From positions 1 through 34,501 of the forward strand of contig JASHTX010000020.1 in assembly GCA_030040335.1 (NCBI GenBank): a stretch of DNA of 34,501 nt. The letters run 5' to 3'. A model generated the notes under the pieces. That model was given only the letters and a program-made list of their open reading frames with translations, ran no database searches and was not told the origin of the DNA. Both the position numbers and the translations under genes were made by a program. Shown one piece after another: positions 10,276 to 34,501 of this stretch (positions are counted from its first letter, which is position 1; each line of letters begins with the position of its first letter). The stretch comes from Candidatus Micrarchaeota archaeon. Its GTDB lineage: Archaea > Micrarchaeota > Micrarchaeia > Micrarchaeales > CABMGC01.

Positions 10276-10281
10276 ATAAAA

Positions 10282-19659: not shown

Positions 19660-20613
19660 GTGCAAGATGCAAGGAAAGGAGGAAGAGGAGTTCGCAAAGC
19701 CCAATCTGCAATAGAATATCTTTCAATCTACGGCTGGGCGGCGTTGCTGATAGCAATCGTGATGATAGTCCTGTTTGAACTTGGCGTCTTCAATACTCTC
19801 CTTGTAGGTCCGAGGGTGCAGCCAGGCAGCTGCCAGGTGACAAGGCCCAACGGTCCGGGCACCACATATTTCATGAGGATAGTGGGCGCGTGCAACGGTG
19901 CGTTGCCCGAATACGTAATGGTCGCGCATCAGGCAGGAGAGTACGTTGAGGTGGCCAACTCCAGCCATGCATGGAGCCAGCTGAACGTGCTTGGCAACCA
20001 GATAACAGTCGCGGTATGGGTAGACATCTACGGCGCACCATACCACGATGTGGTCGACAAGGAGTATCAGTACGGCATGAAGCTTGATCTTGACAACGAG
20101 CCGAATCCCTGCTTCCCGAGCGACAACACAGGTCTCTGCCTCGAGTGGGACACGTACGACAACTGGGCCGGAGTGGGCCCGAGCGAACCGATACCGGGCG
20201 GCGGCTTTGACAAGTGGATATTCCTGGCAGCGACGATGAATGGAAAGGTCAAAGACTGGTATGCGAATGGAAACTTCATAGGAAGCCAGGACGGCGGCAA
20301 CACGCTGGAATACGTGGATTCCAACCTCTCGATAGGCGCAATTTCAACTGGCTGGACGGGATACGGAGACGCGGAATGGTTCAACGGCACGATAGCAAAC
20401 GTGCAGGTCTACAACACAAGCCTGACTCCAAATGAGATAGAGCAGCTGTATGTAGGCGGGATAGGCTCGCCGCCAATAAGCCTCTCCAACCTGGTCGGAT
20501 GGTGGCCGCTCAACGGCAACGGAAACGACTACAGCGGAAACAACGATAGTGCGCTGACGATAAGCAACGTCTCGTTTACAAACGACTGGACATCGCAATA
20601 CGCCATAACCTGA
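19660..20613 (+). CDS. class III signal peptide (type IV pilin-like) protein with LamG/concanavalin-like domain
   Basis: GTG start. The N-terminus is MQDARKGGRGVRKA|QSAIEYLSIYGWAALLIAIVMIVLF: a charged leader, small residue before Q, E at +5 and a roughly 20-aa hydrophobic helix. The C-terminal half has the LamG signature WFNGTIANVQVYNTSLTPNEIEQLY followed by GWWPLNGNGNDYSGNN. TATA-like AATATAAATATTAA sits at about 19617-19630. Confidence 0.82.
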   Translation: MQDARKGGRGVRKAQSAIEYLSIYGWAALLIAIVMIVLFELGVFNTLLVGPRVQPGSCQVTRPNGPGTTYFMRIVGACNGALPEYVMVAHQAGEYVEVANSSHAWSQLNVLGNQITVAVWVDIYGAPYHDVVDKEYQYGMKLDLDNEPNPCFPSDNTGLCLEWDTYDNWAGVGPSEPIPGGGFDKWIFLAATMNGKVKDWYANGNFIGSQDGGNTLEYVDSNLSIGAISTGWTGYGDAEWFNGTIANVQVYNTSLTPNEIEQLYVGGIGSPPISLSNLVGWWPLNGNGNDYSGNNDSALTISNVSFTNDWTSQYAIT

Positions 20614-22056: not shown

Positions 22057-22827
22057 TTGATGCAGACGAGCAAAGAAGAGACCTTCAACGTCATGACTCT
22101 CGCGCTCATCATGGCTTTCGCGATCTTCATCATGACGATGCTGATACTGTGGGTCGTGACAAAGAACCTCTACCTGGACTACTACTTTACGCTTGAGTCA
22201 TTCTTCAACGCGCAGAACACGGCAGCATCGGAGGCCCTGGCTAGCGTCGCCTTCTCGAAGAACCTCGGCCAGTTTCTGCTGATACTTTTTGTAGTGGTTG
22301 TGGACAACCTGGGCAGGATATTCATAGTCAGCTTCATAATAGCCGCGGTGATTGACTTCCTCAACTACGCAAATGTCGAGGCGATAATAAACGATCTTCG
22401 GGCTGGCGCCTTGAGGAACCACGTGATACTCTGCGGCTACAACGAAATAGCAGACAAGCTTGCCGCTAAGTTCAAGGAGCAGAACATCAGGTTCATAGTC
22501 GTGGAGCCGAAGGTAGGCAAGGGCATAGAGCTTAACGAGAAGAAGATACTCAACGTCGAAGGGGACTTCACGAAGGCCGAGACGCTGAAGACCGCGGGCA
22601 TAGAAAAGGCAAGGGCCATACTCTTCATATCTTACAGCGACATAGACAACGTGGTGGGCTCGCTGGTCGCGAAGAAGCTGAATCCGAAGATAAAGATACT
22701 CAGCAGGATAAGCGAGGAGAGCGTGAGGAAGAAGGTCTATGGGATAGGAACGTACATGGCGGTGATACCCGAGCACCTTGCGGGCATAGAGATGGGAGAG
22801 TACATGGCAAGGCTTTATGGTGCGTAA
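22057..22827 (+). CDS. membrane protein with C-terminal RCK/TrkA-N domain (channel-like, no K+ signature)
   Basis: 256 aa. Two to three N-terminal hydrophobic helices precede an RCK domain (HVILCGYNEIADKLAAKF...VEGDFTKAETLKTAGIEKARAILF). It starts 5 nt after the upstream gene. Confidence 0.78.
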   Translation: MMQTSKEETFNVMTLALIMAFAIFIMTMLILWVVTKNLYLDYYFTLESFFNAQNTAASEALASVAFSKNLGQFLLILFVVVVDNLGRIFIVSFIIAAVIDFLNYANVEAIINDLRAGALRNHVILCGYNEIADKLAAKFKEQNIRFIVVEPKVGKGIELNEKKILNVEGDFTKAETLKTAGIEKARAILFISYSDIDNVVGSLVAKKLNPKIKILSRISEESVRKKVYGIGTYMAVIPEHLAGIEMGEYMARLYGA

Positions 22828-23553
22828 ATGGCCAGGTTGAGGATAATACACATAATTTCGGTCATGCTGATAATAATGATCTTCATAGTCTCGGTCATAT
22901 TCGTGATCCTTTCAGGCTATACCCCGCTTGATGCGGTCATCTTCAGTTTCATGAACGTTATAGGCGCGACCTTCCCTCCCAACTCGGCGCTGCTCGACGC
23001 GGAGAGTCCGCTAATACTCATGACCGTGGCCCTTGGCATCTTCGCGAACGTGGTGCTGACAATCACCTTCACGACAATATTTTACGAGCTGCTTGGCGGA
23101 ATAGACCTGCGCTACATGCTGATGAAAAGGAAACTCAGCGGCCTGAACAAGCACGCGATAATAACGCCGATAAACGGGATGGGGCTGGAGCTGGCCAACA
23201 AGCTGAAGGCTTTCGGAGTGCCTGTCGTCTTTGTGGACAACAACCCAGCGATGATCAGGAAGGCGATAAGGGAGGGCATGCTAGTGGTGCACGGGGACGC
23301 GGAGAATCCCAACAGCCTCACTGACGCGCACATAAACTACGCAATAGGGCTCTACGCACTCTACGACGATGACGTGAAGAACACCTTCATCACCATAGAG
23401 GCAAAGCGGATGGAAAGAAGCATAAGGGTAATAACAAGGATAAAGAGGCTGGAGGACCTGATAAAGATGGAAAGGGCGGGAGCGAACAGGGTCATGCTGC
23501 CCGAAGCAGCGGTGGGCATAGAGATAGGGGATTTCCTCGTTACCAGCACCTGA
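22828..23553 (+). CDS. membrane protein with C-terminal RCK/TrkA-N domain (channel-like, degenerate pore loop)
   Basis: 241 aa. Its ATG abuts the upstream TAA. The layout is TM, then a re-entrant-like segment (DAVIFSFMNVIGATFPPNS), then TM, then an RCK domain (VVHGDAENPNSLTDAHINYAIGL). Confidence 0.75.
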   Translation: MARLRIIHIISVMLIIMIFIVSVIFVILSGYTPLDAVIFSFMNVIGATFPPNSALLDAESPLILMTVALGIFANVVLTITFTTIFYELLGGIDLRYMLMKRKLSGLNKHAIITPINGMGLELANKLKAFGVPVVFVDNNPAMIRKAIREGMLVVHGDAENPNSLTDAHINYAIGLYALYDDDVKNTFITIEAKRMERSIRVITRIKRLEDLIKMERAGANRVMLPEAAVGIEIGDFLVTST

Positions 23554-23587
23554 CCCTTCATTAAAGACCGATCCTCTAGCAAAGAGC

Positions 23588-23600
23588 TATATCTTTTAAT
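23588..23600 (+). promoter_or_regulatory. TATA-like box TATATCTTTTAAT upstream of the pilus-machinery operon
   Basis: Its centre is about 27-29 nt upstream of the ATG at 23623 (MADQPAPNQ...). That fits a leaderless transcript starting at the second in-frame ATG rather than at 23605. Confidence 0.4.
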
Positions 23601-23604
23601 TGCT

Positions 23605-24855
23605 ATGTTACCATGTGTATACATGGCAGACCAGCCAGCTCCGAACCAGCCAGCCGGAGAACAGCCGATAACGACCAGCATCGACGACCTGGTCAAGTAT
23701 CTGAACGAACACGGCGAGACCGACTCTACCACGCTTTCCGGCTCACTGAGGGTTAGCGAGAGGATCATAGAGACGTGGAGCGACGTCCTCGAGAAGGCGA
23801 AGATCGTAAAGATAAACTACAGACTGGGCAAGATGTTCATATCGCCTATGGTTGCGACCAAGGAGGGCGCAGACGTGGCGAAGAAGACCGTGGAGCTCAA
23901 GAAAGGAGTGGCGGAGATGGAGCTCACCACGCAGATAGTCATGATAAACCAGATCAACACCAAGCTCGACGAGTTCAAGAGATACGTTGCAGGGGCAGAG
24001 GTGGCGTTCAAGTCGAAGGCGGGCCAGCTCAAGGACATGCTCGACGAGCTGGAGAAGGTAAGCCAGCAGATAGACAGCTCGTACACGAAACTGAAGGAGA
24101 AGAAGGACTTCGTGGACCAGCTTGCAGGCAAGCTCGACAAGGAGATGGGAGATCTTCAGGAGAGGGCCACCAAAGGCATGGAGATTTCAGGCAATACCGA
24201 GGCGGACTCGAAGAGGCTTCTCTCCGAAACGAAGATGAACCTCGACAACGCGGACAACAGGATAAGGACGCTGAACGAGGAATTCAACAAGAGTATGGAA
24301 AGCAACAGGAAGACATTCGAGGAGAGCCTGAACGGGATAAGGAACGAGATGCGGTCGCTGAGGGAGATAGTGAGCCAGCAGGAGAAGGAGCAGCACGAGT
24401 ATGCGGCGTTCATAAACTCGTACAAGAGGGAATCAGATTCGATAAAGCGGAACGTCGCGAAGGAGAGGAGCAGGATGATGGACGAGATAACAAGGGCGAG
24501 CGGCGAGGTGGGAAAGATGTACGCCGTGGCCGAGGCGCAGATTCTGGGGGCCAAGAGGACGCTCGAAGACATCAAGAGCCAGTTCGGCGGCTATGCTGAC
24601 CTGAGCGACAAGCTGAACGGGATAAAGAACAACATAGACTCGATAACCAGGCAGAAGGACGAGGTGCAGAAGGAGCTCGAGGAGCTTCAGGAGCAGCTGA
24701 AGGCGCTCTCGGCTCTAGACGACACAAAGGTGGCCCAGAAGAGCATGGTGATGAAAAGGATAACTGACAAGGTCTCCAAGGCGGGCAAGAAGATTGAGGT
24801 GCTGGAGAGAGACACGGACACGGTGAAGAGAAACATAGACGATATGGCGAAGTGA
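23605..24855 (+). CDS. wHTH-like N-terminal domain plus roughly 300-aa coiled-coil protein; first gene of the type IV filament operon
   Basis: 416 aa, or 410 aa if it starts at 23623. The N-terminus SIDDLVKYLNEHGETDSTTLSGSLRVSERIIETWSDVLEKAKIVKINY is wHTH-like. The rest is K/E/D/L-rich heptad-like sequence with no TM helix. It ends 4 nt before the ATPase gene. Confidence 0.8.
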   Translation: MLPCVYMADQPAPNQPAGEQPITTSIDDLVKYLNEHGETDSTTLSGSLRVSERIIETWSDVLEKAKIVKINYRLGKMFISPMVATKEGADVAKKTVELKKGVAEMELTTQIVMINQINTKLDEFKRYVAGAEVAFKSKAGQLKDMLDELEKVSQQIDSSYTKLKEKKDFVDQLAGKLDKEMGDLQERATKGMEISGNTEADSKRLLSETKMNLDNADNRIRTLNEEFNKSMESNRKTFEESLNGIRNEMRSLREIVSQQEKEQHEYAAFINSYKRESDSIKRNVAKERSRMMDEITRASGEVGKMYAVAEAQILGAKRTLEDIKSQFGGYADLSDKLNGIKNNIDSITRQKDEVQKELEELQEQLKALSALDDTKVAQKSMVMKRITDKVSKAGKKIEVLERDTDTVKRNIDDMAK

Positions 24856-24859
24856 GCCG

Positions 24860-26377
24860 ATGGAGGAAACGCAACTAAGCCATAGCGAGAAAGTTTACGG
24901 GTCGTACGAGCTTGACGCGCACGGGCTCAAGGTTGCGATAAGAATAGTGGACAAGGGCACTTTCGTACCCATATACGAGGTCACAGTGCCCGGACTGGGA
25001 GACGCTACAAAAGTGCTCCTGATATCGCTCAGGCAGGAGCTCCTTTCGATGGTACCCATAGACCCTTCGCGGGTCGAGGACAAGGATTACGTTGACGAGC
25101 TGACGCAGAAGTACATCGAGGCCTCGAACATAATCATAGACAGGTACCTGCCGGGCTCGTCAGCAGAGACGAAGCGCGTCCTCATCGCTTACATAGTCAG
25201 CTTCATGCTTGGACTCGGAGACCTGGAAGCACCGCTTGCAGACGACAACCTGGAGGAAGTTGCCGTTAATACTTCAAAGGAACCGATATGGGTCTTCCAC
25301 AAGCAATACGGATGGTGCAAGACGAACGTGACGCTGCTTGACGACAACGTGATATACGACGACGCGCAGCAGATCGGAAGGAGGATAGGGAGGCAGATCT
25401 CCAACCTTTCGCCCCTCATGGACGCAGAGCTTCCGGACGGCTCGCGAGTCAACGCTACGCTCTACCCGATATCACAGAAGGGCAACACGCTGACCATAAG
25501 AAAGTTCGGGAAGAACCCGTGGACCATGCCCGCCATGATCGCAAACGGCACGCTCTCCCCGGAGATCGGAGCGCTAATGTGGCTCGGAGTGGAGAACGAA
25601 GTCAGCTTCCTGATATCAGGAGGCACGGCGAGCGGAAAGACGAGTTTCCTAAATGCGATGAGCGTCTTCATACCTGCAAGCCGCAGGGTGATATCGGTGG
25701 AGCAGGACAGGGAACTGACGCTTCCGAACTTCCTTCACTGGGTGCCTATGCTTACGAGGCAGCCCAACCCAGAGGGCAAGGGAGAGATAACGCTCTACGA
25801 CCTGATGATCAACGCGCTGAGACAGAGGCCAGACGTGATGCTGGTTGGAGAGGTGAGAACCAAGAAAGACGCGGAAACGCTTTTCGAGGCGATACACACT
25901 GGTCACGCGGTGTACGGCACTGTGCACGCTGATAACGCGCAGGACACCATCGTCAGGATGACCAACCCGCCCATCGAGGTGCCGAAGCTCATGCTTAACG
26001 CATTCGGCGGGGTCATAAGCCTTTTCAGGCACAGGAGACTGGGGATAAGAAGAGTCCTTGAGGTAGGGGAGATGCTGAGCAGCGGAGACATAAACGTAGT
26101 CTACAGGTGGGACACGAGGAACGATACGTTCGCGCAGATAGCAGAGATTGCGAGGATGAGCGAGACGATAGCGCTCTTCGGAGGCTACACCAAGGACGAG
26201 CTTGCGAAGAACATAGAGGACAAGCAGATAGTGCTGAACTGGATGGTGAAATACAACGTCACAGGAGTGGACGATGCCGGATATGTCATCTCAAGCTATT
26301 ACAGGAATGCTGAGAAAATCCTCAAGATAGTGGGCGAAAACCAGCCCTACTCGAAGGAGCTCATAGAGAAAGTGTGA
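24860..26377 (+). CDS. type II/IV secretion system ATPase (FlaI/ArlI-PilB-TadA family)
   Basis: 505 aa. Motifs are Walker A SGGTASGKTSF (nt about 25619-25642), Asp-box-like ISVEQDRELTL, Walker B PDVMLVGEVR and His box HTGHAVYGTVHA. Confidence 0.93.
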   Translation: MEETQLSHSEKVYGSYELDAHGLKVAIRIVDKGTFVPIYEVTVPGLGDATKVLLISLRQELLSMVPIDPSRVEDKDYVDELTQKYIEASNIIIDRYLPGSSAETKRVLIAYIVSFMLGLGDLEAPLADDNLEEVAVNTSKEPIWVFHKQYGWCKTNVTLLDDNVIYDDAQQIGRRIGRQISNLSPLMDAELPDGSRVNATLYPISQKGNTLTIRKFGKNPWTMPAMIANGTLSPEIGALMWLGVENEVSFLISGGTASGKTSFLNAMSVFIPASRRVISVEQDRELTLPNFLHWVPMLTRQPNPEGKGEITLYDLMINALRQRPDVMLVGEVRTKKDAETLFEAIHTGHAVYGTVHADNAQDTIVRMTNPPIEVPKLMLNAFGGVISLFRHRRLGIRRVLEVGEMLSSGDINVVYRWDTRNDTFAQIAEIARMSETIALFGGYTKDELAKNIEDKQIVLNWMVKYNVTGVDDAGYVISSYYRNAEKILKIVGENQPYSKELIEKV

Positions 26378-27411
26378 ACGTGGAAGAGGCGCCAGACTAC
26401 GAGAAAATGGTAGATATTGTCGACTCCGTAGACCAGGCATCTGCAGAGACAACAATACCCATAGACGTCTCTGATGTTTTCCAGAACAGGATCGAAGTCA
26501 GGGAACTGAAGTACGAGGATGTAGAGCAAATACTCGAGAAGACAGACACGAGAAGATTTGAGGTGCCGCAGATTCAGGCCAGGCAAAGGATCCAACCCCA
26601 GCAGATGCAGCCAAAGGTACAGAGCACGCAGCCGAAAACCAGAATGCAGCCGCAGTTCCAAACGCCGCAGCCGCAGATGCGGGTCAGGGAAACACCACAG
26701 ATGCAGCCTCAGGCCCAGCCTTCCCAACCGCAGCCGCAGGCCGCGCAACAACAGCCTCGCATCGAGCCGCAGAAGCAGGAGACCGGGGAACAGCAGGTGA
26801 CGCAGCAGCCTCAGGCTAAGGCTCCGCAGATGCAGCCAAGGGCCAGGCCTATACTGCAGACTGCGGGTGAGATATTCGGTTCTGGAGGGGGCGCGAAGAG
26901 CACAGCGGGCGGCACCGGAGGGACCGAGTTGGAGAAAGGAGTGAAAGAGCAGATACCAGAGCACAAGCGCGAAGAAGAAGCAATAATGCAGGTGCAGCCT
27001 CAGGCGAGGGCTCCGCAGATGCAGCCCAGAACCAGAGCAACGAAACAGAATATCGGAAACGAGATGGCTGAAGCTGCCGGCAGGCTGAAGAACATGATGG
27101 GCGCGGCCGGAACAGAGTTCGAGAAGGGAGTGAAAAAGGAGATTGTTGAAACGAAAGTGGAAAAGCAGCAGACGGTGATGCCGAAGCTTTCCCTGCAGGA
27201 TCAGGTCTCGGATCTCGAGAAGATAGAGGAGGGCATCGGAGAAGACGCATTCGACGACGAGCAGATAGAAATAATAAAGCAGGAGATCAATGCGCTCAGC
27301 CTCGCAGCTTCAAAGGAGATGATGAGCAGGCTTAGCTGGGAGCAGAAGCAATTGGCTCTGCTGAGAAACCAAAAGATTAAAGAGATAAGACGTGCGTTGA
27401 ATATGAATTAA
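26374..27411 (+). CDS. Q/P-rich low-complexity repeat protein, no TM helix (hypothetical accessory protein)
   Basis: 345 aa. Its GTG start overlaps the ATPase stop (GTGA). An acidic N-terminus is followed by a Q/P-rich tract with five (P)QMQP-type motifs, an internal roughly 62-aa duplication and a helical acidic C-terminus. Confidence 0.75.
   Translation: MNVEEAPDYEKMVDIVDSVDQASAETTIPIDVSDVFQNRIEVRELKYEDVEQILEKTDTRRFEVPQIQARQRIQPQQMQPKVQSTQPKTRMQPQFQTPQPQMRVRETPQMQPQAQPSQPQPQAAQQQPRIEPQKQETGEQQVTQQPQAKAPQMQPRARPILQTAGEIFGSGGGAKSTAGGTGGTELEKGVKEQIPEHKREEEAIMQVQPQARAPQMQPRTRATKQNIGNEMAEAAGRLKNMMGAAGTEFEKGVKKEIVETKVEKQQTVMPKLSLQDQVSDLEKIEEGIGEDAFDDEQIEIIKQEINALSLAASKEMMSRLSWEQKQLALLRNQKIKEIRRALNMN
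26800..27159 (+). repeat. intragenic tandem duplication (two units of about 62 codons)
   Basis: Unit 1 reads QQPQAKAPQMQPRARP...GGTGGTELEKGVKEQI. Unit 2 reads VQPQARAPQMQPRTRA...MGAAGTEFEKGVKKEI. At the DNA level, cctcaggctaaggctccgcagatgcagcc matches cctcaggcgagggctccgcagatgcagcc. Boundaries are approximate. Confidence 0.7.
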
Positions 27412-27428
27412 CCGGGTCGTGTATTCAG

Positions 27429-28589
27429 ATGGGTTTGTTTGGAGGAAGTAAGCAGGCGGCAGACGACGGACAGCAGGGTGATATAATTGGCTTCACAAAG
27501 CCGAAAAAATTCCTGTTTTTCAAGATAAAGTCAAAGCCCATATATGAAAATGCAAAACAAAAGCAGGGGTCGGCACTGGCGCAGCAGCCCTCTCCGCACC
27601 CGCAGAAATCCTCATTCGCAGACAGGATGAAGAACCTGATTCCAAAGCCCAAATCAGCGCAGGCCAGGCAGATGGGCGGCACGACTCAGAGCGCAATGGT
27701 CATGGGACGCGGGAGCCAAGCCCCGGCCGCAGGAACTCAGCTTCCGCCGGGACTCGCAAGGAAGCCCACACAGATGGAGATATACTTCGCGACGGTGGCT
27801 GCGAGGCACAAGGAGCTCGGACCTGCCCTCAGGGCCCAGGGCATAAAGGAAAGCCCGACCGAGTTCGTCAGGAAGATGTTCATGAACGCCATGGTCATAA
27901 CCGTGATGATGACCATCGTGATGGGCATAGCGCTTTACTCGTATGGAGTAAGTGTGATACTTGCGTTGCTCTTCGGGGTGGCGCTCTTCTATGCATTCTT
28001 CAACAAGTTCATACAGTACCCGATAGACAGGAATGCGGTCGTGGGCAAGGAGATAGAGAAGGACATACTCTTCGCTACCAGAGACCTGGTCATAAGCATG
28101 AGATCCGGAATGCCTCTCTTCAACGCGATAACAGCAGTGAGCACAGGCTACGGGGCTGCAAGCCAGGAATTTGCGAAGATCGTCGAGCTGGTGCAGCTTG
28201 GAGCTCCTATAGAGCAGGCGATTGACGATGTCAGCGCTGCAAGCAGGTCCAAGACCTTCAAGAGGGTGATGCTGCAGACAACGGTCAGCCTCAAGGCCGG
28301 AGCCGACGTAGTGGGCGCACTGCAGGAGGTTGTCGACGAGGTCGCACAGGAGAGGGTCATTGAACTGAGGAGATATGGGCAGAGACTAAACGCGCTCGCC
28401 ATGTTCTACATGCTTTTCGGAGTCATATTTCCGAGCATGGGGATAGCTGTTGCGGCAATCCTCACAACATTCATCAGCATATTTACCGTCAACAACAGCA
28501 CGCTTCTTCTCGGTGCCGTATTCATCTTCTTCCTGCAGCTCATATTCCTGAACATGATGAAGTCGTCGAGGCCGACTTTCGCGATGTGA
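27429..28589 (+). CDS. T2SSF-domain platform protein (FlaJ/PilC/TadB-like), first half, with roughly 130-aa disordered N-terminal extension
   Basis: 386 aa. A Q/P/K-rich N-terminus precedes a TM helix. The cytoplasmic T2SSF-type helical domain (ILFATRDLVISMRSGMPLFNAITAVS...LVQLGAPIEQAIDDV...LKAGADVVGALQEV) is followed by C-terminal TM helices. Confidence 0.82.
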   Translation: MGLFGGSKQAADDGQQGDIIGFTKPKKFLFFKIKSKPIYENAKQKQGSALAQQPSPHPQKSSFADRMKNLIPKPKSAQARQMGGTTQSAMVMGRGSQAPAAGTQLPPGLARKPTQMEIYFATVAARHKELGPALRAQGIKESPTEFVRKMFMNAMVITVMMTIVMGIALYSYGVSVILALLFGVALFYAFFNKFIQYPIDRNAVVGKEIEKDILFATRDLVISMRSGMPLFNAITAVSTGYGAASQEFAKIVELVQLGAPIEQAIDDVSAASRSKTFKRVMLQTTVSLKAGADVVGALQEVVDEVAQERVIELRRYGQRLNALAMFYMLFGVIFPSMGIAVAAILTTFISIFTVNNSTLLLGAVFIFFLQLIFLNMMKSSRPTFAM

Positions 28590-28593
28590 TGTT

Positions 28594-29586
28594 ATGAAAA
28601 TAGAGATAGAAAGGCTCATGTCAAGGAACTTTTCAAACTTCCTAAACAGCGAGCTCATGCTTGCCGGCATGAAGATGACACTTGAAAAGCTAATCCAGAT
28701 AGGTTTCGTGGGCGGCATAGCGACGCTTGTCCTGACTCCTATTGTTCTTGTTCTGCTCTTCGGCCTCAGCATCCCGATTTCCTTGGGGATCGGGATTGCT
28801 GCCGCTGCTATCTTCGAGGTTTCGATATACGCTGCGATGGAGTTCAGGATAGAACAGAGGAAGGATTTCATCGAGACGCTGCTTCCAGACTACCTCCAGC
28901 TTGCCGCAGCGAACGTAAGAAGCGGAATAGCGATAGACAAGGCGATGATACTGGCCGCAAGGCCCGAGTTCGGATACTTCTCCGATGACGTGAAGGAGAT
29001 GAACAAGGAGCTTTACAGCGGAGTCACGCTCCAGGCGGCGCTCACCAACCTGGGGAAAAGGTACAGGTCGCTTCAGTTGTCGCACACCGTGAGGATGATG
29101 GTCGAAGGAATACAGTACGGCGGAGGGATGACCGACCTCCTGAACCAGATCTCCAAGGACATAAGGAACCAGCAGATGGTCCAGAAGGAGATATCTGGGC
29201 AGCTATTCATGTACACGATATTCATAGCGTTCGCCTGCCTCCTCGGCGCACCGGTGCTTTATGCCCTGACATCGCAGATGATCGGGGTCACGGATACGGT
29301 CTGGGCTGGGATATTGAAACAGAACCCAGGCGGGCTTCCGACAGTGGGCGTTTCTTTCCTAAGACCTACGCCGCCACAGATAACCATCGACGCCTACCAT
29401 GACTTCGCCATAGCTGCGGTGGTCATGATAACGGGTTTCGGCGCATTCATAGTGAGCGCGATCTCGACAGGCTCTGTCATCAGGGGCATACGGTACGTAC
29501 CCATATTCATAATCATAGGATTGGGCATATTCTTCCTGGTCTCCTCTGCGATAGGCAGCGAGTTCGGAAGCATCGGAGCCGCCTGA
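28594..29586 (+). CDS. T2SSF-domain platform protein (FlaJ/PilC/TadC-like), second half
   Basis: 330 aa. TM helices precede a T2SSF-type domain (LPDYLQLAAANVRSGIAIDKAMILAA...LYSGVTLQAALTNLGKRY...GIQYGGGMTDLLNQIS), followed by three C-terminal TM helices. Confidence 0.82.
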   Translation: MKIEIERLMSRNFSNFLNSELMLAGMKMTLEKLIQIGFVGGIATLVLTPIVLVLLFGLSIPISLGIGIAAAAIFEVSIYAAMEFRIEQRKDFIETLLPDYLQLAAANVRSGIAIDKAMILAARPEFGYFSDDVKEMNKELYSGVTLQAALTNLGKRYRSLQLSHTVRMMVEGIQYGGGMTDLLNQISKDIRNQQMVQKEISGQLFMYTIFIAFACLLGAPVLYALTSQMIGVTDTVWAGILKQNPGGLPTVGVSFLRPTPPQITIDAYHDFAIAAVVMITGFGAFIVSAISTGSVIRGIRYVPIFIIIGLGIFFLVSSAIGSEFGSIGAA

Positions 29587-29587
29587 G

Positions 29588-32251
29588 CTATGTATTTCCA
29601 AGCCCGAGAGCCTGCCACTCGTTCGCAACCGTTGAAATAGTGGATAGCCCAGGCGAATTGTAGTTTCCGGAGAAGTAAGGATAGATGACGTTGTTCGAGA
29701 GCCCATTATTGTTGTAGCCGCTATAGTCAGTTGCGTTACCGTTGAGCGGCCACCAGCCGACCAGGTTTGCGGTTAGAGGCAGCCCGGTTACGCCCTCGGA
29801 ATAGAGCGAATTGAAGGAAGCCTGGGAGAGGACTGAGCCGTAGACCTGTGCGTCGGCGATGTTGCCTGAGAAGTAATAGTTTGTGCCGAACGTCTTGCCT
29901 ATCTCAAAAGTGGTTGCCACATAGGTTATGGTCCCTGTCGTTGCTACGGGCGATCCGACCAGAGCTCCGTTCAGATAGAAGCGGACATTCGCGCCGTCGT
30001 AAGTTACACCAGCCAGATACCAGTTATTCAGAGGAAGCGCGGTGAATGCAGAGGAATCGGCGGTGACCTCGCTTGCACCGTTCCAGAACTGGAAAATAAG
30101 CTCAGTCCTACCACTCGAAAGCATAAGCCTGTACTGGTATGGGCTTGCGCTATCTTTTCCCAATATCTGCTGGTCAGTAGAGCCGCCAAAGGTATTTATC
30201 CAGGCCAGCAGGCTGATGGCGGTGCCGGTTACGTCCAGGGATGTGGTTTGCCCCGGTATGGAGATAAAGGAGGTCTGCCCGTTAAAGTCAGCTGTCTCCA
30301 GATAACCGTTCTGAGGCTCGAGTGGCATGTAACCCAGGTAAAGCTGCTGTATTGTGTTGCTGGCGCACTGCGCGTTAGTGTCGCAGGTAATCCCAGGAAG
30401 CGGAGAGACTGGTGTGGGAACCACATACGAAAATATGCTGTCGCGCGTGTAGTTGATAGGTGGTATGAAGTTCCCGTTTACGAGCGTAACGTTGTTGTTG
30501 TAGCCGCTGTAGTCATGGGCGTTGCCGTTCAGCGGCCACCAGCCTATGAGTCCGTTGTCGCTCAGCGGCAGGCCGGTTATGCCTTCCTGGAATAGCTTCT
30601 GCACCTGTGCCGGCGCTATGGAAGTGTTGTATATCTGCACATCGGAGATGAGACCATTGAAAGGCGCTCCGTTGCCGGGCTGTTCGCCGATAACTATGTT
30701 TGCCGGGCTGCTGTAGCTTATCGCGCTGGGGCCTAGTGTGTTGCCGATCAGGTTTCCATCCACATAGAGCAATAGCTGTTGTGTGCTGCTGTTGTACGTG
30801 CCGGTGAGCATGTGCCACGATCCGATCCCGATTGTGAACCTTGGAGTCCTGTAGGTCTGGCTTGCAGGCCCGCAGATCACGAAGTCGTAGCCATTCGGAG
30901 TAGCACCGTTCTCACTCTCAAGCGCATAGCCGCCGCTCGCGCAGTTGGTAGGCGTCATGCTCGTCGAGGTGACTATCTCACGGGTGGTGTCGCCGCTCAC
31001 CTTGTTGGAGTAGATCCACGCTGAGACTGTGACAGCGGAGGCGGGCGTAAGCACGTTGATCACGTTTACCGCCACCTTGTTGCCAGATACTCCCGGAAAA
31101 CTTCCTACCTGCAGATTGTACGTGCCGAAAGTGAATATGCCGCTCGGGGATTGCGACATCAGGCTGGCCTGGCCCCTCTGCAGATATGATGGCGTGTACG
31201 GGGAGGCGAAGTAGTAGTTGTTGATTACTGCGCTCCTCAGCCCTTCTATGTTTAGCGCATCCATTCCCGGCCCGTAGAGGAGCACGCTTGTGCCGCTCGG
31301 CAGGGTCTTGAGTATTCCGCTTGCATCGGTGTACCTGAGGAACGGAACCGTTGGGAGAGTCGAGGGAGCGTTGTAGGTTATGATTCCTGCAAAGTTATTC
31401 TCGCAGCCTTCGGTATCGAGACCCATGGCATTGAAGGTAACGAGAATTATGTTGCTGGAGTAAGGCTGCGCTGAAAAAGGCGAGGGGATGCTTGTGCACA
31501 ATGCCCCGCTGCTTTGGGAACTCGTCAATGAGAGTGTGGTACCATATGCATAATTCAGTATGTTTCCGGAAACGGCGTAGCCGGTGCCATCTAGGCTGGT
31601 TACGTTTGTAAGGTTGGCGAATTTCAAGGGCCTGAGGATGCCCTGCTGCGCGAAGAAGAGATCTGGCGTGTTGTTGAGCGGAAGGGAAACGTTAACAGGT
31701 ATGTTGTAGCTGTAGTGGTTCCCGCTGGCATTCAGGATTATGCGCTCGATGTAGGAAACCCTTATGTGATAGGGGTCGGTCTGGAATATATTTGGAGTCG
31801 TCTCATTGACGATTACATTCTGGCTCGCGAAGCCGATAAGCGATCCTATAGACTTGTTGTACTGCAGGAACGTCAGATTACCCATCGCGACCGGCGGATA
31901 GCCAGAAGTGTCGTTCGGCACGTTGCCGGTCATCATAAGGTCAGAGAGGTAAAGGCTGGTGTTTGTTATGAAATTGACCTTCCTGAGCGCAGGAACATAC
32001 TCGTAAGTGACCAGAGTTGTCATCGCCTTGCTAAGGCTTCCCTTGGCGAAATTGTTCGCGCTGAGTTTCAGGAGATTTCCGTAGTTGCTGGAGGCGGCAG
32101 AGACAGTCAGAGACTGGACAACGCTGTTGGAGTCTATGTTCAGAAGTGCAAATGCGAAGAGCTCTGCAAGCATCAGCATGAAGAGCAGAAGGGTCAGCAT
32201 GGTCATGAGCTGTCCCTTGCTCGAACCGCCAATAAGTTTCTTTAGCTCCAT
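29588..32251 (-). CDS. giant class III signal peptide (pilin-like) protein with two LamG-type modules
   Basis: 887 aa. The N-terminus is MELKKLIGGSSKG|QLMTMLTLLLFMLMLAELFAFALL. A roughly 340-aa sequon-rich module of unknown fold comes next. Two LamG cores end in ISDVQIYNTSIAPAQVQKLF and NIADAQVYGSVLSQASFNSLY, and each is followed by GWWPLNGNxxDYSGYNNN. Its start overlaps the upstream gene by 10 nt. Confidence 0.85.
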   Translation of the reverse strand: MELKKLIGGSSKGQLMTMLTLLLFMLMLAELFAFALLNIDSNSVVQSLTVSAASSNYGNLLKLSANNFAKGSLSKAMTTLVTYEYVPALRKVNFITNTSLYLSDLMMTGNVPNDTSGYPPVAMGNLTFLQYNKSIGSLIGFASQNVIVNETTPNIFQTDPYHIRVSYIERIILNASGNHYSYNIPVNVSLPLNNTPDLFFAQQGILRPLKFANLTNVTSLDGTGYAVSGNILNYAYGTTLSLTSSQSSGALCTSIPSPFSAQPYSSNIILVTFNAMGLDTEGCENNFAGIITYNAPSTLPTVPFLRYTDASGILKTLPSGTSVLLYGPGMDALNIEGLRSAVINNYYFASPYTPSYLQRGQASLMSQSPSGIFTFGTYNLQVGSFPGVSGNKVAVNVINVLTPASAVTVSAWIYSNKVSGDTTREIVTSTSMTPTNCASGGYALESENGATPNGYDFVICGPASQTYRTPRFTIGIGSWHMLTGTYNSSTQQLLLYVDGNLIGNTLGPSAISYSSPANIVIGEQPGNGAPFNGLISDVQIYNTSIAPAQVQKLFQEGITGLPLSDNGLIGWWPLNGNAHDYSGYNNNVTLVNGNFIPPINYTRDSIFSYVVPTPVSPLPGITCDTNAQCASNTIQQLYLGYMPLEPQNGYLETADFNGQTSFISIPGQTTSLDVTGTAISLLAWINTFGGSTDQQILGKDSASPYQYRLMLSSGRTELIFQFWNGASEVTADSSAFTALPLNNWYLAGVTYDGANVRFYLNGALVGSPVATTGTITYVATTFEIGKTFGTNYYFSGNIADAQVYGSVLSQASFNSLYSEGVTGLPLTANLVGWWPLNGNATDYSGYNNNGLSNNVIYPYFSGNYNSPGLSTISTVANEWQALGLGNT

Positions 32252-34440
32252 GAGTAGACGCCTACCTTGATTGCGTTGGCCACGCCCGTCGTGTAATTAG
32301 TCACAGAAAGAAGGGTGCTGGATTTTGTAACCTCATATGCATTGCTCAGCCCGGGCGGTTTATAGTTCTGCGTGGTGAAACCGACCGGGCCGCTCAAGAA
32401 ACCAGGATTGAAGCCTGCGTAATCATTGGCGTCTCCGGCGAGTGGGTACCACGCCACAAGGCCGTAGCCTTTGAGCGGTACGCCATCGACGCCGCGTAGG
32501 TAAAGCTCGGCCACCTGCGTCCTCAGTATCGGCTTGCTGTATATCTGCACGTTTGCGATATTGCCGGTGAAGTACCTTGTGTCCATGTAGTTGCCTGCTC
32601 CTATTGTCAGGTTTATGTTAGGCGTTGTGGGAAATATGGTGGCAACCGGAGAGTTTACCGTATATGGAGTGTTGCTGTTTATGTACTCGTCGGCATACGT
32701 GCCGTTGAAGACTCCGGTTATCATATACCACCTGTTCTTGTTCAGCACGAGACCGTTGACAGGGATCTGCTGCGTGTGCTGTATGCTGAACTGTATGACG
32801 TTGCTGCTGGTCAGGTAGAAGAACCATCCGCAGTATGTAGAGGGAGAGAGACAGGTGCCGTTGTCTCCGTAATTCAGGAGCTTGGCGCCGCTTGCAGGGT
32901 AAGCGCTGATGTTTATCCAGAAGACCACGCTCACATCTGATGTGTTAAGTGCCTGGATGTTCTTTGCGTCTATGCGCCCCGAAGCCCCGGAGAAGCCTGC
33001 GGTCGTTATCGTCTGTGAGACAGAGTTTGAGACGTAGAGGCTGTAATTCAGCAGCGGATATACGGAGTTGAGCAGGGCGATTCCGCAACCGGTCTGGGAG
33101 TTAAGGTACATAGTTGCCGCTGCGGATAGCAGCGATGCGTAGAGAGGGGAATCACATGTGCCGTACGCGTAGACCTTGTTATTCGCCATTACGTAGAGCC
33201 TGCCATAGGCAAGAGCCATGTACGGCGAGATGTGTACTCTTGGGATCAGAGAGAACCACTGGATCTTGCCTGTCGTGAGGTTCATGGCTGCAAGGCCGTT
33301 GCTCCACAAAGTGTAGACAGATGTGGCAGTCACCACAGGCGTCGCATTTTCCAGTGGTCCGTTATACGAGACCGGCACGATAGTATTCCAGTAGGGAGTT
33401 CCGGAAGGCGACATTGCATTGACCCCTGCGGCCGTCTGGAATACCACGTAATTCTTGAAAGTGGCAACTCCGGTCGGTGCCGACCCGAGCGCAATCGGGA
33501 AGCCGGTAACTACGGTGCCGTTGACATAAATGGCGTTTGCTGATGTTCCGGTGCCCAGGTATGTGACCGTTCCGGAGCCGGCGAGGTTGTTTGTCGGAGG
33601 GTTCCCGGAAGTGTATGTGGTTGAGACGAGCTGCGCGGTAGAGGCACCTGCGCTGAACAGAGTTATAAGCAGCTGGGATGTGGTAAGCTCGATTACGGTG
33701 CCCCTCAACACGGCAAGCGAGATCGGCGCACTGCCGGCTGAGTTCGACCATACCTGGGTTCCGTTGTTTGCATAGTAGGAATACATGCTGCTGCTTGCGC
33801 CGAAGAATATCCTGTTTGCGTAGGCTATTATCGGAGTGGTCACAGGCGTAATGGATTGTATTGACTTTGTGGTCCATATCAGCGCACCGCTCCTTGCGTT
33901 GACTGCGGTGAGGTTTGTCTCGTTTGCGTATATCAGCATTCCTGAGTAGAGTGCGGGCGTAGGGAGGTTCCTGCCGCCGTTTGTACCAACAATCCTGACC
34001 CAGGCGGTCCTGTTTGTCGTTGCGTTTACTGCATAAATCAGCGTGTTGCCGGTGTTGCTACCGGCTCCGAAGTAAAAGTCGCCGTAGTCTGCAACAAGCC
34101 CCATGGTCACTGTGTTGCTGGGGTTGAATACGTAAGAGAGTATCCCTTCTTTAGGGCCCACCAGGTTGCTGCTGTTGGTCTGCGGACCGCCTAGAAACTG
34201 CGGGGATGTCTCATTGGCGCCGAGATACTGGGTTGCTATGGCGCCTGCTAGCGCGCTGCTGTTTTGCAGCGACACAACACTCGTGGAAGAAAGGTATGAA
34301 AGCAGGTCCTGGACGTTGGAGTAATGGATTGCGTAAGGGGTCTGGGCATAGTACTGGAAGTAGAGGAGTATGGAGATGCATAACACCACTATGGCCAGAG
34401 CGAAGACGGAATCCAGCGTAAAGATTATTCCCTTCATCAA
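32242..34440 (-). CDS. class III signal peptide (pilin-like) protein with PQQ-like beta-propeller and C-terminal LamG domain
   Basis: 732 aa. The start is TTG at 34440 or, more likely, ATG at 34437: MKG|IIFTLDSVFALAIVVLCISILLYF. Repeated propeller-blade motifs are LIYAVNATTNRTAWV, LTAVNARSGALIWTT, YSYYANNGTQVWSN, VNAMSPSGTPYWNT and LAAMNLTTGKIQWFS. The LamG tail is FTGNIANVQIYSKPILRTQVAELY followed by LVAWYPLAGDANDYAG. Confidence 0.85.
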   Translation of the reverse strand: MMKGIIFTLDSVFALAIVVLCISILLYFQYYAQTPYAIHYSNVQDLLSYLSSTSVVSLQNSSALAGAIATQYLGANETSPQFLGGPQTNSSNLVGPKEGILSYVFNPSNTVTMGLVADYGDFYFGAGSNTGNTLIYAVNATTNRTAWVRIVGTNGGRNLPTPALYSGMLIYANETNLTAVNARSGALIWTTKSIQSITPVTTPIIAYANRIFFGASSSMYSYYANNGTQVWSNSAGSAPISLAVLRGTVIELTTSQLLITLFSAGASTAQLVSTTYTSGNPPTNNLAGSGTVTYLGTGTSANAIYVNGTVVTGFPIALGSAPTGVATFKNYVVFQTAAGVNAMSPSGTPYWNTIVPVSYNGPLENATPVVTATSVYTLWSNGLAAMNLTTGKIQWFSLIPRVHISPYMALAYGRLYVMANNKVYAYGTCDSPLYASLLSAAATMYLNSQTGCGIALLNSVYPLLNYSLYVSNSVSQTITTAGFSGASGRIDAKNIQALNTSDVSVVFWINISAYPASGAKLLNYGDNGTCLSPSTYCGWFFYLTSSNVIQFSIQHTQQIPVNGLVLNKNRWYMITGVFNGTYADEYINSNTPYTVNSPVATIFPTTPNINLTIGAGNYMDTRYFTGNIANVQIYSKPILRTQVAELYLRGVDGVPLKGYGLVAWYPLAGDANDYAGFNPGFLSGPVGFTTQNYKPPGLSNAYEVTKSSTLLSVTNYTTGVANAIKVGVYSWS

Positions 34441-34501
34441 GACACACCGAAACTTTTGTTCGTCCAGACTATTATCTGCATCTTGGCTGGCACACCGTTC
34501 A
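34437..34501 (-). CDS. possible 3' end of a further upstream gene of the pilin-like operon (truncated by the window edge)
   Basis: The minus-strand frame reads ...NGVPAKMQIIVWTNKSFGVS* with TGA at 34439-34437, sharing one base with the ATG at 34437 (TGATG). Only 21 codons are visible, so this is weak. Confidence 0.3.
   Translation of the reverse strand, partial: NGVPAKMQIIVWTNKSFGVS

What the first reader, a model, noticed from the sequence alone, without database searches (positions are those of the whole stretch)
23605..34501. Atypical archaeal type IV filament cluster: six-gene machinery operon abutting an operon of giant pilin-anchored surface proteins
Seen in sequence: 23605-29586 (+) is a tight operon, with junctions from a 4-nt overlap to a 17-nt gap. 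It encodes a wHTH/coiled-coil protein, a secretion ATPase (Walker A GGTASGKTS, Walker B DVMLVGEVR, His box HTGHAVYGTVHA), a Q/P-rich repeat protein and two separate T2SSF membrane proteins. Convergent to it, 34501-29588 (-) encodes at least two overlapping genes. Their products start with class III signal peptides yet are 732 and 887 aa long, with beta-propeller and LamG modules. Established knowledge: archaeal type IV pilus and archaellum loci have an ATPase plus a FlaJ/PilC/TadC platform as core, and pilins are usually short proteins. Inference: this is a type IV filament or pseudopilus-like display machine whose subunits are themselves lectin/adhesin-sized. Its two cytoplasmic accessory proteins have no counterpart I recognise in the archaellum (ArlCDE/F/G/H/X), Aap, Ups, Epd or Tad-like sets. 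In a small-genome archaeon it would be a plausible host- or surface-attachment device.
Basis: partly seen in the sequence, partly recalled or inferred. Interest (0 to 1): 0.8.

Follow-up and report, generated by a model that had tools for sequence, protein, structure and literature searches.

The report
Micrarchaeota pilus locus with lectin pilins
This is a real type IV pilus gene cluster, conserved across the tiny symbiotic Micrarchaeota, in which huge lectin-bearing pilin-like proteins probably sit at the pilus tip for attachment; the kind of system is already catalogued, but two of its cytoplasmic helper proteins are undescribed.

Summary
The genes are there, but the + strand operon has five genes, not six. 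They encode a winged-helix/coiled-coil protein, a T2SSE ATPase, a Q/P-rich protein and two single-domain T2SSF platform halves. Convergent to them are 887-aa (2x LamG) and 732-aa (beta-propeller + LamG) proteins with conserved class-III-like N-termini.

The contig is Micrarchaeota (DPANN). The arrangement is kept in 25 of 29 species-level loci.

The window cuts the pilin operon. In relatives it has five genes: a small, highly conserved 160-aa pilin, an 1146-aa multi-LamG protein, a 182-aa protein, and then the two giants. So the giants are more likely tip or minor "modular pilins" than the filament subunit.

Nanoarchaeota-like relatives carry the same five-gene order, with a vWA giant.

Split platforms, type IV pili (T4P) in DPANN, LamG proteins linked to T4P loci, and lectin or vWA modular pilins are all published.

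New here:
- The winged-helix domain of the upstream accessory is fused to the ATPase N-terminus in other DPANN, which argues for a physical partnership.
- The Q/P protein was found only in Micrarchaeota.
- Two RCK-domain membrane genes are conserved neighbours.

Verdict: a new variant of a known kind, of moderate interest.

The parts
22057..22827 (+). Membrane protein with a TrkA_N (RCK) domain. Conserved upstream neighbour; membership in the system is uncertain.
   Evidence: Pfam TrkA_N 3e-19. NCBIfam match to the C-terminal part of a Kch-type K+ channel. An orthologue lies upstream of the coiled-coil gene in at least 17 Micrarchaeota loci.
22828..23553 (+). Second membrane protein with a TrkA_N (RCK) domain, abutting the first. 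Conserved neighbour; membership uncertain.
   Evidence: Pfam TrkA_N 8e-21. Conserved position in the same Micrarchaeota loci, and one TrkA_N gene sits upstream of the winged-helix gene in Nanoarchaeota locus L047.
23586..23600 (+). TATA-like element, a possible promoter of the machinery operon.
   Evidence: Read directly from the sequence, CTATATCTTTTAATT, about 25 nt before ATG 23623. Not tested.
23623..24855 (+). Cytoplasmic accessory: N-terminal winged helix plus a coiled coil of about 330 aa (the ORF is open from 23605).
   Evidence: AlphaFold2 model with pLDDT 73.6 shows a winged helix and long helices. Foldseek finds only generic winged-helix folds. 44 orthologue clusters were found, every one that carries a taxon name being Micrarchaeota (one labelled Marsarchaeota). 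Homologues sit upstream of the ATPase in L045 and L047. The domain is fused to related ATPases. No TM segment.
24860..26377 (+). Secretion-superfamily assembly ATPase (T2SSE).
   Evidence: Pfam T2SSE 9e-32. Walker A, Walker B and His box are visible. 64-86% identical to Micrarchaeota proteins. Best PDB matches are afGspE, FlaI and CpaF.
26374..27411 (+). Cytoplasmic Q/P-rich accessory with conserved N- and C-terminal segments.
   Evidence: No Pfam or NCBIfam family. 27 orthologues lie between ATPase and platform, typically 187-216 aa, and this is the longest. Conserved C-terminal motif LSLQDQxS[ED]LEKIxEG. Absent from L044, L045 and L047.
27429..28589 (+). Platform half 1, with one T2SSF domain corresponding to the N-terminal half of a canonical TadC/FlaJ. 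It carries a low-complexity cytoplasmic N-terminal extension of about 145 aa.
   Evidence: Pfam T2SSF 2e-14. Aligns to positions 26-247 of the 484-position UpsF model. TM segments from residue 149.
28594..29586 (+). Platform half 2, with one T2SSF domain corresponding to the C-terminal half of a canonical TadC/FlaJ.
   Evidence: Pfam T2SSF 3e-16. Aligns to positions 198-460 of the 465-position ArlJ model. It is an ancient paralogue of half 1: cross-profile scores are about 27 bits against 310-360 bits to its own orthologues.
29588..32251 (-). 887-aa modular pilin-like protein: class-III-like N-terminus (SKG|QLMT...), a conserved region of about 390 aa, and two LamG modules.
   Evidence: Laminin_G_3 3e-40 in two stretches. 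The N-terminal motif is conserved in about 27 orthologues. The N-terminal region is weakly homologous to the 311/312-aa fifth pilin gene of L045 and L047 (E 1e-9). One TM segment and 15 N-glycosylation sequons.
32242..34437 (-). 731/732-aa modular pilin-like protein: MKG|IIFTLD N-terminus, PQQ-type beta-propeller and one LamG module.
   Evidence: PQQ_2 3e-11 and Laminin_G_3 2e-15. The N-terminus MK[GA][IV]xFT[LM]D is conserved in about 38 orthologues. One TM segment and 18 sequons.
34437..34501 (-). 3' end (last 20 codons plus stop) of the 182-aa-family pilin-like gene, cut by the window edge. Its stop shares one base with the ATG at 34437 of the next gene.
   Evidence: Translation ...NGVPAKMQIIVWTNKSFGVS* matches the C-terminus of the L001 182-aa protein. 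The family has a conserved MK[A/L]|QFWSFD N-terminus.

Best explanation
This is the Micrarchaeota version of an archaeal type IV pilus (type IV filament) system.

Shown:
- A five-gene machinery operon encodes a winged-helix/coiled-coil protein, a hexameric-type secretion ATPase, a Q/P-rich protein, and the N- and C-terminal halves of the membrane platform as two separate genes.
- It is convergent with a five-gene operon of proteins with class-III-like N-termini, of which only the last two and a stub of the third lie in the window.

Inferred mechanism:
- A prepilin peptidase encoded elsewhere trims the short basic leaders. The leaders have the form [KR]-x|Q or MKG|.
- The ATPase, docked on the TadC1/TadC2 heterodimer, extracts the pilins from the membrane.
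- The small conserved 160-aa pilin, or other small pilins encoded in trans, forms the shaft.
- The 182-aa protein and the three modular giants form a priming or tip complex. The giants carry 1-5 LamG modules, and one carries a beta-propeller.
- This complex displays glycan-binding modules for attachment to a surface or to the host cell.
- The winged-helix/coiled-coil protein is a cytoplasmic partner of the ATPase, acting as scaffold, positioner or regulator.
- The Q/P protein is a second, Micrarchaeota-specific adaptor.
For: - Domain content of all seven products.
- Taxonomy.
- Gene order cc-ATPase-QP-TadC1-TadC2 convergent to G887-G732-p182 in 25 of 29 species-level Micrarchaeota loci, at 27-85% protein identity.
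- Full five-gene pilin operon in relatives. The 160-aa member is the most conserved.
- N-terminal motifs conserved over about 35 species. Q at +1 is nearly invariant in the p182 and G887 families, and p160 and G1146 of L006 also carry it. Position -1 varies (A/G/L/V/M/C) in the p182 and G887 families.
- Each giant has a single N-terminal hydrophobic helix and 15-18 glycosylation sequons. The coiled-coil and Q/P proteins have no TM segment.
- The same five-gene order is seen in Nanoarchaeota-like loci. Their first gene hits Pfam Class_IIIsignal, and their giant carries vWA or is 1614 aa long.
- The winged-helix domain lies N-terminal to the ATPase core in 15 of the 150 listed representative relatives, one of them from Woesearchaeota.
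- The two platform genes map to the N- and C-halves of the canonical platform.
- Literature: T4P plus linked LamG proteins and one prepilin peptidase in the micrarchaeon Mia14 (PMC5498576); split platform in Epd/Tad/system 1 (PMC6668835, 10.64898/2026.04.22.720090); tip-located lectin and vWA modular pilins (PMC9934059, PMC8179133).
Against: - No pilus, cleavage or glycan binding has been shown for any of these proteins.
- No prepilin peptidase lies in the window or within 10 kb in relatives.
- The -1 residue of several putative cleavage sites is L, V or M rather than the usual G, A or S.
- p160 and the small pilin-like proteins hit no Pfam or NCBIfam pilin family.
- In about 4 loci the pilin operon is not beside the machinery.
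- Which subunit forms the shaft is inference only.
- The only structure prediction of a giant failed, with pLDDT 30.6.
Confidence: 0.6

Rival explanations
1. Pseudopilus or bindosome-like display. The machinery builds no long pilus. It builds a short membrane-proximal stalk, or merely extracts and positions the pilin-anchored giants, so that LamG and propeller modules coat the cell surface, as the Sulfolobus bindosome does with sugar-binding proteins.
For: - Three of the five substrates are very large.
- Archaeal class-III-signal proteins used for surface display rather than filaments are known (bindosome; 'functionalised TFF' idea in 10.64898/2026.04.22.720090).
- The ATPase gives a sub-threshold match to the BasE model, 138 bits.
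Against: - A small, highly conserved pilin heads the operon.
- The five-member set resembles minor-pilin sets that prime filaments.
- No substrate-binding-protein domains are present.
- BasE scores below FlaI and TadA, and far below its cut-off.
Confidence: 0.2
2. One reading: the giant lectin-sized proteins are themselves the repeating subunits of the filament.
For: Within the window the only class-III-type genes next to the machinery are the 887- and 732-aa proteins.
Against: - The window truncates the operon. Relatives have a 160-aa pilin and a 182-aa pilin-like gene in the same operon.
- The giants evolve fast (27-55% identity) and vary in module number, while p160 is conserved.
- Bulky modular pilins are modelled as fitting only at the tip (PMC9934059).
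Confidence: 0.1
3. Coincidental adjacency. The LamG and propeller proteins are ordinary Sec-exported, N-terminally anchored surface proteins unrelated to the ATPase operon.
For: - LamG proteins are generally expanded in DPANN (PMC5498576).
- Another LamG protein lies 3 kb away in the window.
- In about 4 loci the two operons are apart.
Against: - Convergent adjacency is kept in 25 of 29 loci across deep divergence.
- The N-termini are conserved as short-leader motifs far better than the rest of the proteins.
- A homologous pilin set, including a Pfam Class_IIIsignal member, also sits beside the orthologous machinery in Nanoarchaeota-like loci.
Confidence: 0.05

Closest known systems
T4P locus MIA14_0170-0177 of 'Ca. 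Mancarchaeum acidiphilum' Mia14 (Micrarchaeota), Golyshina et al. 2017, PMC5498576
   Same: Same phylum. The listed order is CpaF-family ATPase (0170), unnamed gene (0171), TadC (0172), TadC (0173), two unnamed genes, and a 'secreted component of T4P-like system' (0176). This fits ATPase-QP-TadC1-TadC2-G887-G732-p182. The paper states that LamG-like proteins are linked to the T4P loci and that key components are shared by many Micrarchaea.
   Different: Orthology is inferred from gene order only, because I could not obtain the Mia14 sequences. The paper does not describe the winged-helix/coiled-coil or Q/P proteins, does not call the LamG proteins pilins, and does not define the five-gene pilin set.
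Archaeal TFF 'system 1' / clade 1, the Epd pilus of Methanococcus maripaludis (Makarova 2016 PMC4858521; Denise 2019 PMC6668835; Sivabalasarma & Albers 2026 bioRxiv)
   Same: T2SSE ATPase plus a platform encoded as two single-T2SSF genes. Several pilin-like genes and large adhesin-like proteins in the loci. Reported in DPANN. Q at +1 of the signal, as in EppA substrates.
   Different: No EppA peptidase, FlaH or MinD-type ATPase in the locus. No ~70-aa major pilin was found. The gene order here is ATPase, then N-half, then C-half. The accessory genes differ. The ATPase could not be placed against EpdL here, and its His box lacks the one-residue insertion seen in CpaF.
Modular minor pilins PilB (vWA) and PilC (concanavalin-A-like lectin) of Streptococcus sanguinis T4P (PMC8179133, PMC9934059)
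   Same: A class III signal and short pilin moiety with a grafted adhesive module. ConA/LamG-type lectin modules occur here, and a vWA module occurs in the Nanoarchaeota counterpart. In S. sanguinis these form a tip complex with a small non-modular minor pilin.
   Different: Bacterial, unrelated in sequence, and about 50 kDa. Here the proteins reach 730-1150 aa with up to 4-5 LamG repeats and a beta-propeller. No structural or binding data exist.
Bacterial Tad pilus (TadA/CpaF, TadB, TadC)
   Same: ATPase followed by two single-domain platform genes. The ATPase shares the R-x-P-N-x-E-G-x-G segment with CpaF, which afGspE and FlaI lack by two residues. NCBI names close homologues 'CpaF family'.
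   Different: No secretin, TadZ, or Flp-type ~50-aa pilin. CpaF scores lower (167 bits) than afGspE (226) or FlaI (188). The order of platform halves differs from tadB-tadC as described in PMC6668835.
PilY1/PilC tip adhesins of bacterial T4aP
   Same: A large beta-propeller-containing adhesin associated with a minor-pilin set at the pilus tip.
   Different: PilY1 is not a pilin and has no class III signal. The 732-aa protein here carries its own pilin-type N-terminus, and its propeller is PQQ/BamB-like.
Cytoplasmic coiled-coil accessories of other archaeal T4P (arCOG07564 in halobacterial subclade 4F; SMC-like neighbours of 4F; ArlX/FlaX)
   Same: A cytoplasmic coiled-coil protein encoded next to the ATPase and proposed as regulator or scaffold (PMC4858521).
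   Different: Homology was not tested, because no arCOG library was available. The protein here has a specific N-terminal winged helix that is also found fused to DPANN ATPases, and it has no TM anchor, unlike FlaX.

Membership tests
Type IV filament superfamily (archaeal T4P) | Secretion-superfamily assembly ATPase (T2SSE) with Walker A, Walker B and His box | tested here: met
   Pfam PF00437 E 9e-32. Motifs visible. PDB matches to afGspE, FlaI and CpaF.
Type IV filament superfamily (archaeal T4P) | Polytopic T2SSF platform protein encoded next to the ATPase | tested here: met
   Two adjacent genes, each with one PF00482 domain. TM segments present.
Type IV filament superfamily (archaeal T4P) | Substrates with a class III signal peptide: short basic leader, cleavage motif, about 20 hydrophobic residues | tested here: inconclusive
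   Motif-level match is conserved in about 35 species. The Nanoarchaeota orthologue of the first pilin hits Pfam Class_IIIsignal. FlaFind was not available. Position -1 is often L, V or M. Cleavage was not tested.
Type IV filament superfamily (archaeal T4P) | Prepilin peptidase (PibD/FlaK/EppA, Peptidase_A24) in the genome | not testable with these tools
   None in the 34.5-kb window or within 10 kb in relatives. Only literature is available: one FlaK-like peptidase in the micrarchaeon Mia14 (PMC5498576).
Archaeal TFF system 1 / clade 1 (Epd-like) | Platform split into two genes, each with one T2SSF domain | tested here: met
   The first gene aligns to the N-half of the UpsF model and the second to the C-half of the ArlJ model.
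Archaeal TFF system 1 / clade 1 (Epd-like) | ATPase branches with EpdL / arCOG01819, sister to bacterial TadA/CpaF | tested here: inconclusive
   No EpdL reference was available. The ATPase lies outside the afGspE+FlaI pair (NJ, 199 of 200 bootstraps), which is an uninformative result on its own. It shares the PNxEGxG segment with CpaF but not CpaF's His-box insertion. The nearest non-Micrarchaeota relatives with a taxon name are Nanoarchaeota, Altiarchaeales and Woesearchaeota.
Archaeal TFF system 1 / clade 1 (Epd-like) | Dedicated EppA peptidase and a secondary ATPase (FlaH/MinD/TadZ-like) in or near the locus | tested here: not met
   No such domains among window ORFs or in L001 and L002.
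Archaeal TFF system 1 / clade 1 (Epd-like) | Very short (~70 aa) major pilin lacking a globular domain | tested here: not met
   The smallest pilin-like genes in the operon are 160 and 182 aa. A motif scan of the window found no short pilin. Trans-encoded genes cannot be excluded.
Modular type IV pilins (sensu Raynaud et al. 2021) | [quoted passage not shown] | tested here: met
   A single N-terminal hydrophobic helix with a conserved leader, plus Laminin_G_3 and PQQ_2 domains. The pilin fold of the moiety itself was not verified, because the model failed.
Archaellum | ArlB archaellins plus ArlH, ArlF/G, ArlC/D/E or ArlX around ArlI/ArlJ | tested here: not met
   FlaI model 246 bits against a 550-bit cut-off. 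ArlJ E 9.5e-4, 18 bits against a 400-bit cut-off. No archaellin or Arl accessory domains.
Sulfolobus bindosome (Bas) | BasE/BasF plus class-III-signal substrate-binding proteins | tested here: not met
   BasE model 138 bits against a 1000-bit cut-off. No solute-binding domains in the pilin-like proteins.

The most novel reading that the evidence does not exclude
The winged-helix/coiled-coil protein, the Q/P adaptor and the two conserved RCK-domain (TrkA_N) membrane proteins may form a DPANN-specific cytoplasmic control or anchoring module for the pilus motor. It would be a scaffold that docks on the ATPase through the winged helix, and it would couple ion or nucleotide state, or even DNA binding, to assembly of a lectin-tipped host-attachment pilus. 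That would be a new class of T4P accessory apparatus, and the molecular handle by which Micrarchaeota and Nanoarchaeota seize their hosts.
Probability: 0.15. Interest if true: 0.65.

Novelty: new variant of a known kind. Interest (0 to 1): 0.4.

Why it matters
How DPANN archaea recognise and hold on to their hosts is an open question, and Micrarchaeota now exist in co-culture.

This locus gives a concrete, phylum-wide candidate. It is a pilus whose tip would carry several LamG lectin modules and a beta-propeller. A parallel version in Nanoarchaeota carries vWA.

It extends the bacterial 'modular pilin' idea to archaea at a much larger scale. It also shows modules being grafted onto a conserved five-pilin scaffold.

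The winged-helix-to-ATPase domain fusion gives a testable partner for an uncharacterised accessory protein.

None of this overturns current views of type IV filaments.

Tried and rejected
- Exact look-up of the window ATPase in public contigs: not on record.
- Rfam and tRNA scans: only tRNA-Gln, irrelevant.
- Foldseek of the coiled-coil model: only generic winged-helix folds at E about 0.02, no specific family.
- Single-sequence AlphaFold2 of the 732-aa protein: pLDDT 30.6, unusable, so no fold search was run.
- PDB sequence searches of both platform halves and both giants: no hits.
- Pfam and NCBIfam on p160, p182 and the N-terminal parts of the giants. Nothing significant. Weak hints to haloarchaeal DUF7266, DUF7285 and DUF7287 were not reproducible across members.
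- TRF on the Q/P gene: no repeats.
- Cluster names for 30 representative ATPases: mostly unnamed, so clade labels could not be transferred.
- NJ quartet test against afGspE, FlaI and CpaF. The result is formally strong but uninformative, because afGspE and FlaI are each other's closest relatives. It only excludes placement inside that pair.
- The word-seeded search with the winged-helix profile returned only short stand-alone proteins. One of them, P0341, sits in an unrelated neighbourhood.
- The NCBIfam TafC hit is only LamG-domain similarity to a Tat-fimbria subunit, so I rejected it as a relationship.
- Archaellum, bindosome and clade 2 (PilB3-like) assignments were considered. PilB3_C is sub-threshold in two relatives and absent in the window protein.

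Full report
**What is in the sequence.**
The + strand between 23605 and 29586 holds five ORFs, not six. The junctions are a 4-nt gap, a 4-nt overlap, a 17-nt gap and a 4-nt gap.

- Product 1 (416 aa as an ORF, 410 aa from ATG 23623) gives only sub-threshold, generic coiled-coil hits in Pfam and NCBIfam. An AlphaFold2 model on 22 orthologues (pLDDT 73.6) has a winged helix at residues 20-75 followed by long helices. Foldseek returns only generic ArsR/MarR/S25-type winged helices.
- Product 2 is a T2SSE ATPase (E 9e-32) with the quoted Walker A, Walker B and His-box strings.
- Product 3 (345 aa) has no family.
- Products 4 and 5 each carry one T2SSF domain. Product 4 aligns to the N-terminal half of the UpsF model. 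Product 5 aligns to the C-terminal half of the ArlJ model.

Convergent to these, with one nucleotide between the gene ends, lie two more genes. One encodes an 887-aa protein with two Laminin_G_3 stretches. The other, overlapping it by 10 nt, encodes a 732-aa protein with PQQ_2 and Laminin_G_3.

The coiled-coil and Q/P proteins have no hydrophobic segment. Each giant has exactly one, at the N-terminus, and carries 15-18 N-glycosylation sequons.

The last 63 nt of the window (34437-34499, minus strand) encode the C-terminus of a further gene...IIVWTNKSFGVS*.

**Organism and conservation.**
The flanking genes are archaeal: Topo VI B, aIF2-gamma, CDC48 and S6e. The ATPase is 64-86% identical to more than 100 protein clusters, and those that carry a taxon name are almost all Micrarchaeota.

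A genome scan with an alignment of the 732-aa family returned 40 species-level loci. All are Micrarchaeota, apart from one labelled Marsarchaeota.

A tblastn map shows the order p182 > G732 > G887 convergent to TadC2 < TadC1 < QP < ATPase < cc. This holds in 25 of the 29 loci that extend far enough.

Median identities to the window proteins are:

| Protein | Median identity |
|---|---|
| ATPase | 72% |
| TadC2 | 62% |
| TadC1 | 58% |
| p182 | 49% |
| QP | 43% |
| G887 | 37% |
| G732 | 35% |
| cc | 34% |

This is conserved synteny across deep divergence, not chance.

**The window truncates the pilin operon.**
In relatives such as L006 the operon has five genes:

| Gene | Size | N-terminus | Modules |
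|---|---|---|---|
| p160 | 160 aa | MR-L\|QSSFELL | none detected |
| G1146 | 1146 aa | KR-L\|QIALEF | 4-5 LamG repeats |
| p182 | 182 aa | MK-A\|QFWSFD | none detected |
| G732 orthologue | 725 aa | MK-A\|IVFTMD | propeller + LamG |
| G887 orthologue | 869 aa | MK-G\|QLMT | 2 LamG |

p160 is the best conserved member, at 57-93% identity.

The N-terminal motifs are conserved across about 35 species far better than the rest of the proteins. In the p182 and G887 family alignments, Q at +1 is nearly invariant while position -1 varies (A/G/L/V/M/C). p160 and G1146 of L006 also carry Q at +1. From my own knowledge, this recalls the QxSxE (DUF361) substrates of EppA.

A further 317-aa LamG protein in the window (19660-20613) begins RKA|QSAIEYL.

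**Beyond Micrarchaeota.**
The exhaustive representative search places the next ATPases at no more than 49% identity. Those that carry names are from Nanoarchaeota, Altiarchaeales and Woesearchaeota.

Nanoarchaeota locus L047 has this layout:
- TrkA_N gene, an 89-aa winged-helix gene, a 264-aa coiled-coil gene, the ATPase and two T2SSF genes.
- Divergent from these, five pilin-like genes. The 137-aa one hits Pfam Class_IIIsignal. Then come a 128-aa gene, a 161-aa p182 homologue (E 2e-12), an 891-aa protein with vWA, and a 312-aa gene.

Locus L045 repeats the order with 138, 128, 166, 1614 and 311 aa. A 386-aa winged-helix/coiled-coil gene lies directly upstream of its ATPase.

The N-terminal ~390 aa of G887 are weakly homologous to the 311/312-aa fifth gene (E about 1e-9).

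The Micrarchaeota giants therefore look like a conserved five-pilin scaffold onto which LamG and propeller modules have been grafted.

**The accessories.**
A profile of the winged-helix domain detects that domain N-terminal to the ATPase core in 15 of the 150 listed representative relatives. Examples are P0237, P0211, P0215 and the 1001-aa Woesearchaeota protein P0201. It detects nothing in the Micrarchaeota ATPases themselves.

This domain fusion argues that the winged helix is an ATPase-associated module rather than, or as well as, a DNA-binding regulator.

The Q/P protein is normally 187-216 aa. The window copy is the longest, because of a duplicated Q/P/G-rich linker. Its conserved part is a C-terminal motif, LSLQDQxS[ED]LEKIxEG. 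It is absent from the non-Micrarchaeota loci.

Two membrane proteins with TrkA_N/RCK domains sit directly upstream of the coiled-coil gene in at least 17 Micrarchaeota loci. One such gene sits there in L047.

**Comparison with what is known.**
- Golyshina et al. 2017 list two T4P systems in the micrarchaeon Mia14. One is MIA14_0170-0177: CpaF-family ATPase, a gap, TadC, TadC, and later a secreted component. They assign it to the Methanococci/Thermococci group, and its order fits this locus. They also report one FlaK-like peptidase and LamG-like proteins 'linked to type IV pili loci'.
- Makarova et al. 2016 describe clade 1 loci with two TadC genes and large adhesin-like proteins.
- Denise et al. 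2019 explain the two single-domain platform genes of Epd-like and Tad systems as a gene fission.
- A 2026 preprint states that system 1, with a split platform, occurs in DPANN. It adds that some DPANN 4A loci also have two platform genes.
- Modular pilins with vWA or ConA-like lectin modules at the pilus tip are established in Streptococcus sanguinis and are widespread in bacteria.

**Placement of the ATPase.**
I could not place the ATPase against EpdL.
- It lies outside the afGspE+FlaI pair.
- It shares the R-x-P-N-x-E-G-x-G segment with CpaF.
- It lacks CpaF's His-box insertion.
- It scores afGspE > FlaI > CpaF.

System-1 membership therefore rests on gene order and on the literature.

**Verdict.**
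The core interpretation, a type IV filament machine with pilin-anchored adhesins in a DPANN archaeon, holds. The claims of atypicality and of giant filament subunits do not.

The most likely mechanism is a pilus with a small-pilin shaft and a tip or priming complex of modular lectin pilins used for attachment.

The undescribed parts are the ATPase-linked winged-helix/coiled-coil protein, the Micrarchaeota-specific Q/P protein, and possibly the RCK neighbours.

Noticed in passing
window 22057-23553 (+): Two abutting genes for membrane proteins with TrkA_N/RCK domains, similar to the C-terminal part of Kch-type K+ channels. The second has a pore-loop-like DAVIFSFMNVIGATFPP. They lie 51-69 nt upstream of the machinery operon. 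The pair is conserved there in at least 17 Micrarchaeota loci, and one such gene is there in a Nanoarchaeota locus.
   Followed up: partly
window 19660-20613 (+): A 317-aa protein with a classical DUF361-type class III N-terminus (RKA|QSAIEYL) and one Laminin_G_3 domain. It is a mid-sized modular pilin candidate 3 kb upstream of the cluster. Only its LamG part has matches in related loci.
   Followed up: partly
window 15623-15988 (+): A 121-aa ORF starting MKKRGFLTIVSALLPVIL (signal or pilin-like). It has no Pfam family and no homologue in any of the 47 fetched loci.
   Followed up: partly
window 26374-27411 (+): The Q/P-rich gene is the longest of 27 orthologues, 345 aa against a typical ~200 aa. 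The extra length is a diverged internal duplication of a Q/P/G-rich linker (...MQPR[AT]R...TE[LF]EKGVK...). No DNA-level tandem repeat was found.
   Followed up: yes
window 27429-27870 (+): The first platform half has a low-complexity cytoplasmic N-terminal extension of about 145 aa. It contains a segment GFTK[PS]K[KR]FLFFKIKSKP[IV]Y that is also present in L001. It may be a docking site for the ATPase or the Q/P protein.
   Followed up: no
Representative ATPase hits, e.g. P0166, P0171, P0172, P0177: Many related DPANN ATPases are about 1000-1400 aa and match the query in two or three separated stretches. This suggests inteins or large insertions in the ATPase gene.
   Followed up: no
L046 8001-8327; proteins P0334-P0342: Micrarchaeota also encode stand-alone ~108-aa proteins consisting only of the same winged-helix domain. 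The one whose context was examined sits in a neighbourhood unrelated to pili.
   Followed up: partly
window 1592-3961 (+) and 686-1414 (+): A 789-aa ORF with no Pfam match and a 242-aa coiled-coil ORF lie at the left end of the window. Neither was examined further.
   Followed up: no
L043 (Altiarchaeales IMC4) 10001-14007: The closest Altiarchaeales ATPase is followed by a single 283-aa T2SSF gene and a MoxR-type AAA ATPase. It has a weak PilB3_C domain and no adjacent pilin set.
   Followed up: no
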